Shown here in pieces: positions 3,001-6,000 of a stretch of 64,000 nucleotides of DNA; the first letter of the stretch is position 1, and each line of letters opens with the position of its first letter. The stretch lies in the NCBI RefSeq assembly GCF_053078305.1, contig NZ_CP166879.1; one strand, written 5' to 3'. The position numbers are program-made.

Positions 3001-6000
3001 GTCTGGCGCGATTTTCCAGCGCTGCATATTCGCCGTGTCTTTGCCCGGTTCATCAACGTAGTGATAACCATAATTACGGAAACCGCCGGTCAGGCCGAAA
3101 CTGAAATCATCGCTTTCGAGGAACTGATAATGCACCTCCAGCTCCGGGCGATCAAACCACGTTCCACGTTTACCCGCGCTATAATCAACCGGCCCTTCCT
3201 GATAATAGGCCAGAGAAATTCTCCACGGCCCGTTGGCGGCATTAAAATAGACAGAAGGCTCCGCCAGTCCATCCATATCTTCGCCATAACCCTCGACGTT
3301 TTCTATTTCGTACATCGCGCCGATATTAAAGTGCCAGTCGTTCTTTTCCTCGGCCTGTGCGCAGGCCATTCCCGCACACATCACCAGTGCGGTACAGGGT
3401 AATAACTTTTTCATTATTGTTCCTTGTATTATCCTGGGGGAATGCCTTCCCCCTGTATTTAGCGAATTGCTATTTCCGTTTCTGCATCAAAGAAATGACA
3501 TTTAGTCATATCAAAATGAATAGTGATATTTTCTCCTGCATGATAATCATTTAACGCACCAGCACGGACCACTAACTCGTGCCCCCCAACCGTGGTGTAG
3601 AGCATAAATTCCGCACCGGTTAATTCTGCCACGCTAATTTTGGCGGAAATGTTATTTTCCTCTTGCGCGTCCGGATGAATATCTTCCGGGCGTATTCCCA
3701 TCACGATGGGCTTATGCAAACTTTCCTGTGTTTTCAGAACCGCTAATTTCTCTTCGGGAATGGTTAATTTAAGCGTTTCCGTAACGAATTTATTGCCATC
3801 GATCGTGCCGCGAATAAAATTCATCGCCGGTGATCCAATAAATCCGGCAACAAACATATTCGCGGGTTGGTTATAAACGGTTTTCGGCGCACCTACTTGC
3901 TGAACAATCCCGTCTTTCATAATCACAATCCGCGTCGCCATGGTCATCGCTTCGGTCTGATCGTGGGTCACGTAGATCATGGTGGTGTTCAGTTTCTGAT
4001 GCAGCTTGCTGATCTCTGCGCGCATTTGCACGCGCAGCTTGGCATCAAGGTTAGAGAGCGGTTCATCCATTAAAAACACGCCCGCTTCGCGTACAATCGC
4101 CCGCCCGAGCGCCACACGCTGACGTTGCCCGCCGGAAAGCGCGCCCGGCTTGCGTTTCAGGTACTCACGCAGGCCGAGAATTTGCGCCGCCCAGTTCACC
4201 CGCTCATCAATCACCTCTTTGGCGATTTTTTGCATCTTCAGGCCAAACGCCATGTTGTCGTAAACCGTCATATGCGGATACAACGCGTAGTTCTGGAACA
4301 CCATCGCGATATTGCGTGCTTTAGCTGGAACGTCATTCATTCGTTTGCCGTCGATCAACAGATCGCCGCCGCTGATCTCCTCAAGCCCGGCAATCATGCG
4401 CAGGGTGGTCGATTTACCGCAGCCCGACGGGCCGACAAATACAATGAACTCTTTATCGGCAATTTCCAGGTTGAAGTCCTTCACCACATGCACCTGGTTA
4501 TCGTAGATTTTTTGAATATGTTGTAACGAAAGCTGAGCCATGTTAATTCCTTTGCTATACGTTTTGCCAGAAGGCCGATAACCGCGACCAGGTCAGGGAG
4601 TCCGTTGAAGGCAATAGTAATTGCGCCCCGGTTAAGCCCGCGCCGATCCCCACCGAGCGCATACCGCTGGCGTTAATGGCGTCAATGCCCGCCTGCGCAT
4701 CTTCAATGCCGATACATGCCTGCGGCGGCACGCCCAGCCCGGCACAAGCAGCGAGAAAGATTTCCGGATCCGGTTTCGAGTTTTTAAGTTGGGAAGCATC
4801 CGCGCAGAAGGTGAAAAACTCGCGCAGCTCCAGCGCCGCTAAAATCGTCGGCGCATTGAGGGAGACAGAAGCCAGCCCTACCGCGATCTGCTGTGCGCGG
4901 AGATCTGCCAGCAAAGGCCGGATCCCCGGCAGAACGGCATTAACCGTCAGTTCGCGCAGTGAGTGGACGTAGAGCAGATTTTTGCGATACGCCAGTTGCG
5001 CCCGCTCCTGCGAGTTAAAGTCGCCCTCTTTGCCCCCGTATTGCAGAATGCGCCGCAGAGACTCATCGCGGCTAATCCCTTTTAGGGATTCGTTAAACTG
5101 CGCATCAATGCTGATGCCAATTTCAGCGGCAATCTGCTGCCACGCCTGGAAATGCAGATGCGCGGTATCGGTGATTACACCATCCAGATCGAAAATTACC
5201 CCTTGCAGTTTCATTCATCCTCCTGATGCGTGGTAGCGGTCCCATTGAAGGGCAAAATAAAATCACCCAAACAGAAAACAGATTCTTCAGCCACGGATAT
5301 AAGCTGACCGTTCAAACGCAGTGAAACGGGCGCAGAAGTTCGAATCGCAATACGCTGCGCGTCGAGAGTGACCTGTAATTCGCAGCCCTGCCAGAACAGA
5401 GGGAAAGACAACTGTTGCCACTGCTCCGGTAACGCCGGATTGAGATGCAATTCACCGTCACGCACGCTCACCCCGGCAAAACCCTGAATCGCCCCCAGCC
5501 AGATAGCGCCAGTTGCGGCAGCATGGATACCATCATCACAACTATGCGGATCAGCACCAAGATCGATTTCAGTCCCCTCGCGCCAGAACTGATAACTTTG
5601 GGTCAGCAGGCCACAGCGTGCGGCAACAATGCCGTGGATTGCTTTACTTAATGACGAGTCGTGAATAGTGCGCGGTTCATAAAATTGCAGATTGGCAAGA
5701 CACGATGCCGCTGAGAACTGCTCCGGCAGCATGTAATTGAGCATCACCACATCAGCTTGTTTGAGGATCTGCATCTCGTTCACTTCTGCGCGTGAATAAT
5801 CCAGCAGTATGGTTTGCTTCCCCGCCGCCGCTTTGTATTTCGCCAGATTAATCGCCGGCTTAGCCATAAACGAATCATCCTGCGGCAAAACGCCGTCGGG
5901 CTGAATTTCTGGCATCCATAGCTCTTTGAGGAACATTTCGGCGCGATGGATAAACGCATCGTCGCTACAGCCGAACTGGCGGGCAATATTCAGCGCCTGT

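What the first reader, a model, noticed from the sequence alone, without database searches (positions are those of the whole stretch)
3459..4541. ycjV is intact here, so the ycj ABC transporter is complete
The ATPase gene at the end of the ycjM-V operon is a full 360-aa MalK-like ORF with all ABC motifs. From memory, K-12 MG1655 annotates ycjV as an interrupted pseudogene (with ymjB as a fragment). If that recollection is right, this strain, unlike K-12, has a complete uptake system for the ycj pathway next to an intact ompG.
Basis: partly seen in the sequence, partly recalled or inferred. Interest (0 to 1): 0.3.

Follow-up and report, generated by a model that had tools for sequence, protein, structure and literature searches.

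The report
Intact ycjV; K-12 carries the frameshift

Summary
Observation confirmed. Window 3459-4541 (- strand) is a 360-codon ORF for a MalK/MsmX-type ABC ATPase with all the ABC motifs and the C-terminal OB/TOBE domain. It sits in a full-length ycjM-V/ompG/ycjW locus.

NC_000913.3 annotates ycjV (b1318) and ymjB (b4524) as two pseudogene pieces. The only structural difference is one base. The window has G6 at codons 319-320 (window 3582-3587). K-12 has G5, which gives a stop after 322 aa and removes about half of the TOBE domain.

The intact form is the species norm, not a special feature of this strain:
- 4,995 complete E. coli genomes hold this segment.
- About 4,380 match the G6 72-mer exactly.
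- 369 match the G5 form. Those listed are mostly K-12 laboratory derivatives, with a few wild isolates.
- A swine isolate has the K-12 haplotype base for base except G6.
- The window's exact protein is already on 343 public contigs.

K-12 ycjV is routinely called a pseudogene in the engineering literature, and an intact YcjV has been purified and shown to have ATPase activity.

Not tested here: whether the intact gene gives a working uptake system, and for which sugar. The YcjN ligand is unknown. Verdict: already known, low interest.

The parts
3459..4541 (-). ycjV, intact 360-aa MalK/MsmX-type ABC ATPase (nucleotide-binding subunit)
   Evidence: ORF; Pfam ABC_tran + OB_MalK + TOBE_2; NCBIfam NF008653, 484.6 bits; 6YIR MsmX end-to-end alignment
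3582..3587 (-). G6 run (C6 on the + strand) at codons 319-320; the site of the K-12 1-bp deletion (G5)
   Evidence: Alignment with NC_000913.3; the G5 allele is also found in wild strains
3459..3572 (-). Segment equivalent to K-12 'ymjB' (b4524); here it is simply the in-frame 3' end of ycjV (last 37 codons plus stop)
   Evidence: K-12 annotation coordinates mapped through the alignment
4410..4433 (-). Walker A (GPSGCGKS, aa 37-44)
4125..4139 (-). ABC signature LSGGQ (aa 135-139)
4062..4079 (-). Walker B VFLMDE (aa 155-160), followed by D-loop SNLD (aa 163-166)
3960..3971 (-). H-switch VTHD (aa 191-194)
4548..4552 (-). Shine-Dalgarno AAGGA, 6 nt upstream of the ycjV ATG
   Evidence: sequence read directly
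12160..13452 (-). ycjN, solute-binding protein (430 aa, full length)
   Evidence: SBP_bac_1
11258..12139 (-). ycjO, ABC permease (293 aa, 100% identical to K-12)
   Evidence: BPD_transp_1
10429..11271 (-). ycjP, ABC permease (280 aa)
2509..3414 (-). ompG, monomeric porin (301 aa, intact)
   Evidence: Porin_OmpG, 328 bits
4555..9328 (-). ycjU (pgmB), ycjT, ycjS, ycjR: enzymes of the cluster, all full length against K-12
9346..10398 (-). ycjQ (350 aa, 100% identical to K-12)
13467..15146 (-). ycjM, glucosylglycerate phosphorylase (559 aa, 96.6% identical to K-12), first gene of the operon
1460..2458 (+). ycjW, LacI-type repressor of the operon (332 aa)
   Evidence: repressor role from PMC6599011

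Best explanation
Window 3459-4541 (-) is the ordinary, uninterrupted allele of ycjV. ycjV encodes the nucleotide-binding (ATPase) subunit of the YcjN (binding protein) / YcjO-YcjP (permeases) sugar importer of the CUT1 type, encoded in the YcjW-repressed ycjMNOPQRSTUV-ompG operon. SHOWN: the ORF is intact with every ABC catalytic motif and a complete C-terminal OB/TOBE domain. All other operon genes are full length. K-12 differs structurally by one base only: G6 becomes G5 at codon 319, giving ...TTVGGTS-stop after 322 aa. That removes the last 42 residues, about half of the TOBE_2 domain, and leaves the remnant annotated as ymjB. The intact allele is the majority allele in E. coli. The same K-12 haplotype exists intact in a wild isolate. 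INFERRED from the MalK/MsmX family: a YcjV homodimer docks on YcjOP and uses ATP binding and hydrolysis to drive import of the sugar delivered by YcjN, after passage through OmpG. The K-12 truncation probably destabilises the C-terminal dimerisation/regulatory domain and disables or weakens the ATPase in the complex. The likely mutational mechanism of the K-12 lesion is replication slippage in the short G homopolymer.
For: The ORF, domains and motifs are. A single-base G-run deletion is the only indel, with 15 substitutions, of which 13 are at third codon positions. All 12 neighbouring genes are full length and gap-free against K-12, and the transporter partners carry the expected Pfam domains. 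Of 4,995 complete genomes holding the segment, the G6 72-mer is exact in about 4,380 and the G5 71-mer in 369; the 60 listed G5 genomes are mostly K-12 laboratory derivatives. Swine strain 210221272 has ycjV identical to K-12 at every base except G6. Its product, WP_000057985.1, is the YcjV that was purified with ATPase activity in PMC7658222. The window's exact protein is already on 343 public contigs. Variation among seven alleles fits purifying selection: 42 synonymous against 8 non-synonymous variable codons. K-12 ycjV is used as a 'pseudogene' integration site (PMC10380740; PMC4786092).
Against: No experiment here shows that YcjV energises YcjNOP or that the system imports anything. The YcjN ligand is unknown, and no kojibiose binding was detected by nanoDSF (PMC11543891). 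The K-12 truncated product keeps the whole catalytic domain (residues 1 to about 235), so it could retain some activity. Related ATPases might substitute for it. The 246 genomes whose 72-mer matches neither query exactly were not classified, apart from strain G12, which is intact.
Confidence: 0.9

Rival explanations
1. The intact/frameshifted distinction has no phenotypic consequence. Either the 322-aa K-12 product is still an active ATPase subunit, or another CUT1-type ATPase (MalK, UgpC) energises YcjOP in its absence. On this reading K-12 is not really 'incomplete' and the window strain gains nothing.
For: The frameshift lies after the catalytic domain; all ABC motifs (aa 37-194) are upstream of codon 319. 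E. coli encodes close paralogues: the NCBIfam UgpC and MalK models score 485 and 432 bits on YcjV. ATPase sharing among sugar importers is documented in Gram-positive bacteria (PMC7658222). In K-12 the region 3' of the frameshift shows no further decay.
Against: The missing 42 residues are about half of the TOBE_2 domain (282-351) and align throughout with ordered MsmX residues. The gene shows purifying selection across alleles, including the 3' end. In PMC7658222 exchangeability was limited: YcjV and MalK could not replace MsmX, so cross-energisation is not automatic.
Confidence: 0.25
2. The whole system is cryptic in practice: tightly repressed by YcjW with no known natural inducer or substrate. 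An intact ycjV would then be a retained but rarely used gene, and its loss is near-neutral. That would explain why it is lost repeatedly.
For: Independent lesions were found in the few genomes inspected. G5 occurs on at least two or three haplotypes. Strain 63-2 has the nonsense mutation E337*. Strain PI24 has an IS1-associated deletion of ycjN'-ycjV-'ompG. 422 of 5,426 genomes have no match to the region at all. The operon is strongly repressed by YcjW in MG1655, and kojibiose may not be the natural inducer (PMC6599011).
Against: About 88% of genomes with the locus keep the exact intact 72-mer. The synonymous to non-synonymous ratio of 42:8 indicates ongoing constraint.
Confidence: 0.3
3. The G run is a phase-variable contingency tract that switches ycjV on and off.
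For: The same G6 to G5 change is seen in K-12 and in wild strains on different haplotypes.
Against: Six bases is short for a contingency tract. About 88% of genomes are G6 and about 7% G5, and the listed G5 genomes are mostly clonal laboratory K-12. All K-12 derivatives listed are stably G5. 2014C-3051 and 08-00022 share the 3' haplotype (nt 732-1082), which suggests descent plus recombination rather than frequent switching.
Confidence: 0.03
4. The K-12 'pseudogene' is a sequencing or annotation artefact and K-12 really has the 360-codon ORF.
For: Homopolymer runs are error-prone in some sequencing chemistries.
Against: G5 is present in 369 independent complete assemblies. These include MG1655, C600, DH1, DH5alpha, J53, NCM3722 and many re-sequenced derivatives. 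The 322-aa product also appears in W3110-derived accessions such as BAA14893.1.
Confidence: 0.01

Closest known systems
E. coli YcjV, intact allele (RefSeq WP_000057985.1 / WP_000057989.1)
   Same: Same gene, same length (360 aa), same locus between pgmB (ycjU) and ompG. The window protein differs from WP_000057985.1 at 2 residues (A232 vs S, N250 vs D). The exact window sequence is already public on 343 contigs.
   Different: Nothing of substance; it is an allelic variant.
E. coli K-12 ycjV'/ymjB' pseudogene (b1318/b4524)
   Same: Orthologous locus, 98.5% nucleotide identity over the gene (16 differences in 1,083 columns).
   Different: K-12 lacks one G of the G6 run. Its product ends at 322 aa, and the remainder is annotated as ymjB.
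Bacillus subtilis MsmX (PDB 6YIR), multitask sugar-importer ATPase
   Same: Best solved-structure match, E 9e-149, end-to-end alignment, same NBD + C-terminal domain layout. PMC7658222 gives 64% identity.
   Different: YcjV is encoded inside its own transporter operon rather than as an orphan. It failed to replace MsmX in B. subtilis. It lacks the charged residues the authors link to multitasking: at MsmX positions D77/R104/E110/K154 YcjV has N77/Q104/V110/G154 (PMC7658222; positions read).
E. coli MalK (PDB 1Q12 etc.)
   Same: Same family and domain architecture; E 4e-100.
   Different: Scores below the NCBIfam MalK equivalog cutoff (431.5 against 568 bits), so it is a paralogue and not MalK. 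No evidence here for MalT or EIIA-Glc regulatory interactions.

Membership tests
ABC transporter nucleotide-binding subunit (Pfam PF00005) | Walker A, Q-loop, LSGGQ signature, Walker B, D-loop and H-switch in canonical order | tested here: met
   GPSGCGKS 37-44, Q83, LSGGQ 135-139, VFLMDE 155-160, SNLD 163-166, VTHD 191-194; PF00005 110.5 bits against cutoff 25
MalK/MsmX/UgpC-type (CUT1) sugar-importer ATPase | C-terminal OB/TOBE regulatory domain following the NBD | tested here: met
   OB_MalK 236-288 (54.5 bits) and TOBE_2 282-351 (39.8 bits); end-to-end alignment with MsmX, AlgS and MalK structure sequences
MalK/MsmX/UgpC-type (CUT1) sugar-importer ATPase | Score above a curated family threshold | tested here: met
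   NCBIfam NF008653 subfamily, 484.6 bits against cutoff 432. This is a subfamily-level assignment only and does not imply glycerol-3-phosphate specificity.
MalK/MsmX/UgpC-type (CUT1) sugar-importer ATPase | Genomic association with two BPD_transp_1 permeases and a family-1 solute-binding protein | tested here: met
   YcjO and YcjP match BPD_transp_1; YcjN matches SBP_bac_1; all are intact in the same operon
MalK/MsmX/UgpC-type (CUT1) sugar-importer ATPase | ATP hydrolysis and energisation of the cognate importer | not testable with these tools
   ATPase activity was reported for purified YcjV WP_000057985.1, 2 aa different from the window protein (PMC7658222). Coupling to YcjNOP has not been shown in any paper found.
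MalK proper (NCBIfam NF008233 equivalog) | Score at or above the equivalog cutoff | tested here: not met
   431.5 bits against cutoff 568
Multitask (shared) ATPases of the MsmX/MsmK type | Orphan gene serving several importers; conserved charged residues D77, R104, E110, K154; able to replace MsmX | tested here: not met
   The gene is operon-encoded. YcjV has N77, Q104, V110, G154 (alignment). The published complementation test was negative (PMC7658222).
K-12-type ycjV pseudogene | G5 instead of G6 at coding nt 955-960, giving a premature stop after codon 322 | tested here: not met
   The window has G6 and an open frame to codon 360

The most novel reading that the evidence does not exclude
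The K-12 ycjV frameshift, which none of the ycj-pathway papers I could read mentions, may be the reason MG1655 fails to grow on kojibiose as sole carbon source. It may also be why the physiological substrate of the ycj cluster and YcjN remains undefined. If so, strains with the intact allele (such as this one, or MG1655 repaired G5 to G6) would show the missing uptake and growth phenotype.
Probability: 0.15. Interest if true: 0.4.

Novelty: already known. Interest (0 to 1): 0.1.

Why it matters
It matters little as a discovery. The intact allele is the common E. coli state, its protein is in RefSeq, and the K-12 pseudogene is in the reference annotation and is used as a neutral integration site.

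There is one practical point. Physiological work on the ycj cluster has mostly used K-12: kojibiose phosphorylase YcjT, the YcjQRS guloside enzymes, YcjN ligand screens and YcjW induction. In K-12 the transporter's own ATPase is truncated. The ycj-focused papers I could read list YcjV as the NBD without noting this. Negative growth results in MG1655 are therefore not conclusive for the species, and a strain with the allele seen here is the better background for such tests.

Tried and rejected
- I tried to read Mukherjee et al. 2018 (Biochemistry; PMC5953851 and its DOI), the primary report of the kojibiose growth failure and possibly of ycjV status. It is not held, so I relied on its citation in PMC6599011.
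- I considered separating laboratory K-12 from wild G5 carriers using identity bands of a longer query spanning the K-12-specific SNPs (nt 818/852). I did not run it. A query long enough to hold both sites keeps one difference inside the >=99% band, so the bands would not discriminate. Only a rough statement is possible: 2-3 of the 60 listed G5 records are clearly non-K-12.
- I rejected phase variation at the G run, because the tract is too short and the alleles are stable and clonal. I rejected a K-12 sequencing artefact, because of the 369 assemblies.
- I rejected the idea that the window allele is a reversion or a novel gain. G6 occurs on many divergent haplotypes (window, SCU-316, G12, 210221272).
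- I did not run structure prediction or the large protein-database searches. The MsmX crystal-sequence alignment and the Pfam boundaries already locate what K-12 loses.
- GC content gave no clear sign of recent foreign origin: ycjV 49.2% against 51.1% for the window, and 44.6-57% across the ycj genes.

Full report
**1. The observation**

An ORF of exactly 360 codons lies at window 3459..4541 on the minus strand. An AAGGA Shine-Dalgarno sits 6 nt upstream of its ATG (sequence).

- Pfam finds ABC_tran (residues 21-162), OB_MalK (236-288) and TOBE_2 (282-351).
- NCBIfam places it in the UgpC-type subfamily NF008653 (484.6 bits, cutoff 432). It falls below the MalK equivalog cutoff (431.5 against 568).
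- All catalytic motifs are present in canonical order: Walker A GPSGCGKS 37-44, Q83, LSGGQ 135-139, Walker B VFLMDE 155-160, D-loop SNLD 163-166, H-switch VTHD 191-194.
- The best solved-structure relative is B. subtilis MsmX (6YIR, E 9e-149). It aligns from residue 1 to 360, so the C-terminal 40-odd residues belong to the conserved ordered fold.

**2. Context**

The gene lies between pgmB/ycjU (4555-5214) and ompG (2509-3414), with ycjW divergent at 1460-2458. A tblastn of the twelve K-12 neighbours against the window gives full-length, gap-free matches at 96.6-100% identity. [quoted passage not shown]

The transporter partners carry the expected domains: YcjN has SBP_bac_1, YcjO and YcjP have BPD_transp_1, and OmpG has Porin_OmpG. 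At the ORF and domain level the importer (binding protein, two permeases, ATPase) plus the porin is complete.

**3. The K-12 comparison**

NC_000913.3 annotates ycjV (b1318, 1380821-1381789) and ymjB (b4524, 1381789-1381902) as pseudogenes. PGAP calls the gene 'frameshifted' in another MG1655 assembly.

A global alignment of the window gene (1,083 nt) with the K-12 ycjV+ymjB span (1,082 nt) shows 15 substitutions and a single indel. Thirteen substitutions are at third codon positions. The two amino-acid changes are A232S and N250D. The indel is in a G run: the window has GGGGGG at coding nt 955-960 (window 3582-3587), and K-12 has GGGGG.

K-12 therefore reads ...TTVGGTS-stop and ends at 322 aa. 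It loses residues 321-360, roughly half of the TOBE_2 match. 'ymjB' is just the out-of-frame 3' end; in the window it corresponds to 3459-3572 and is in frame.

**4. Which state is unusual?**

| Measure | Count |
|---|---|
| Complete E. coli genomes searched | 5,426 |
| Genomes matching the 1.4-kb region | 5,004 |
| Genomes holding the 72-nt segment around the run | 4,995 |
| Exact match to the G6 72-mer | about 4,380 (87.7%) |
| Exact match to the G5 71-mer | 369 (7.4%) |
| SNPs elsewhere in the probe | remaining 246 |

One of the 246 was inspected: strain G12 has four SNPs, G6 and an intact annotated CDS.

The 60 listed G5 genomes are overwhelmingly K-12 laboratory derivatives: MG1655 and its evolved clones, C600, DH1, DH5alpha, J53, RR1 and NCM3722. 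Swine isolate 210221272 carries ycjV identical to K-12 at every base except G6. The K-12 lesion is thus a one-step slip on a haplotype that circulates intact. That isolate's product, WP_000057985.1, is the YcjV that Leisico et al. purified and found ATPase-active (PMC7658222).

The window's own protein sequence is already in public collections on 343 contigs, and the 322-aa K-12 product is on at least 1,000. K-12 ycjV is routinely described as a pseudogene and used as an integration site (PMC10380740; PMC4786092; search). The finding is therefore correct but describes the normal allele. K-12 is the exception, and this is known.

**5. Other lesions seen while checking**

- The G5 allele also occurs in wild strains, where PGAP annotates the gene as frameshifted: 2014C-3051 (human stool), 08-00022 (bagged lettuce) and OkiPb01709 (bovine faeces).
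- Their haplotypes differ from K-12 by 21, 5 and 5 bases. 2014C-3051 and 08-00022 share the 3' segment (nt 732-1082), so they probably share the deletion by descent plus recombination. K-12 differs from them at nt 732, 818 and 852. That allows either an independent slip or a recombination breakpoint close to the run.
- Strain 63-2 has a different lesion, the nonsense mutation E337*, on the K-12 haplotype with G6.
- Strain PI24 has an IS1-associated deletion from within ycjN to the start of ompG.
- 422 of 5,426 genomes lack the region altogether.

The gene is thus lost repeatedly but remains intact in the large majority. Variation among seven alleles is mainly synonymous (42 against 8 variable codons), which fits purifying selection.

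**6. How it most likely works**

Shown: an intact MalK/MsmX-type NBD is encoded in an operon with a binding protein, two permeases and a porin.

Established by others:
- YcjW represses ycjMNOPQRSTUV-ompG.
- Kojibiose releases YcjW from DNA in vitro.
- MG1655 nevertheless does not grow on kojibiose as sole carbon source, and deleting ycjW did not improve growth on kojibiose-supplemented rich defined medium (PMC6599011).
- YcjN has an MBP-like fold, but no ligand, kojibiose included, was detected by thermal shift (PMC11543891).

Inferred from the family: a YcjV dimer docks on YcjOP and couples ATP hydrolysis to import of the YcjN-bound glycoside. The K-12 truncation damages the C-terminal domain that holds MalK-type dimers together, and so weakens or abolishes function.

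Not shown: the substrate; whether YcjV is required, since MalK or UgpC might substitute; and whether the 322-aa product retains activity.

**7. Comparison with known families**

YcjV is a member of the CUT1-type sugar-importer ATPases, and all sequence-level defining features are met. It is not MalK, because it scores below the equivalog cutoff.

Despite 64% identity to MsmX, it does not fit the 'multitask ATPase' class. It is operon-encoded. It has N77/Q104/V110/G154 where multitask ATPases have D/R/E/K. It also failed to replace MsmX experimentally (PMC7658222).

**8. Verdict**

Novelty is 'already known' and interest is low (0.1).

The only useful residue is practical. None of the ycj-focused papers I could read notes that K-12's transporter ATPase is frameshifted. 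Growth and uptake tests should therefore be repeated in an intact-allele or repaired background.

**9. Limits**

- Mukherjee et al. 2018 could not be read.
- The split of the 369 G5 genomes into laboratory and wild strains is only roughly estimated.
- Nonsense and other lesions were not censused.
- No functional test is possible with these tools.

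Noticed in passing
window 33457-40950 (- strand): A TetR regulator + RND adaptor + RND permease + outer-membrane factor + MFS transporter island lies between fabI and sapF. K-12 has only ycjD (b1289) at this position. About 2,040 of 5,426 complete E. coli genomes carry the island.
   Followed up: partly
window 38887-38889 (- strand) and window ~35295: Within that island the RND permease has a TGA stop at codon 76, where strain SCU-316 has TTA (Leu). The outer-membrane-factor gene has a 1-bp A insertion that shifts the frame at about codon 237. Neither lesion has an exact 71-mer match in any of the ~2,040 island-bearing complete genomes. They are private to this strain or are sequence errors. 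So the window strain has its own pseudogenes elsewhere.
   Followed up: partly
window 3436-3453 (- strand), ycjV-ompG spacer: A stable hairpin, GGGGGAA-GGCA-UUCCCCC, lies in the 44-nt spacer between the ycjV stop and the ompG start. The 71-nt context folds at -16.5 kcal/mol, z = -3.7 against shuffles. No U-run follows, so it is not a canonical terminator. It could be an mRNA-stabilising or partial-attenuation element.
   Followed up: partly
L005, L006, L007 (ycjV of strains 2014C-3051, 08-00022, OkiPb01709); L011 (strain 63-2); L012 (strain PI24): ycjV is inactivated in several non-K-12 isolates. The same G6 to G5 frameshift occurs on non-K-12 haplotypes. Strain 63-2 has the nonsense mutation E337*. 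Strain PI24 has an IS1-associated deletion from ycjN to the start of ompG.
   Followed up: partly
window 1-25000: No complete E. coli genome in the collection matches the first 25 kb at 99% or better; the best is 98.1%. The 1.4 kb around ycjV, however, is 99.9% identical to SCU-316. Identity to SCU-316 and K-12 swings between about 91% and 100% per 500 bp. The region is a recombination mosaic from a lineage poorly represented among complete genomes.
   Followed up: no
window ~18539-18542 (pspF-puuE intergenic): An 11-bp deletion relative to strain SCU-316 lies in the spacer between the convergent pspF and puuE genes.
   Followed up: no
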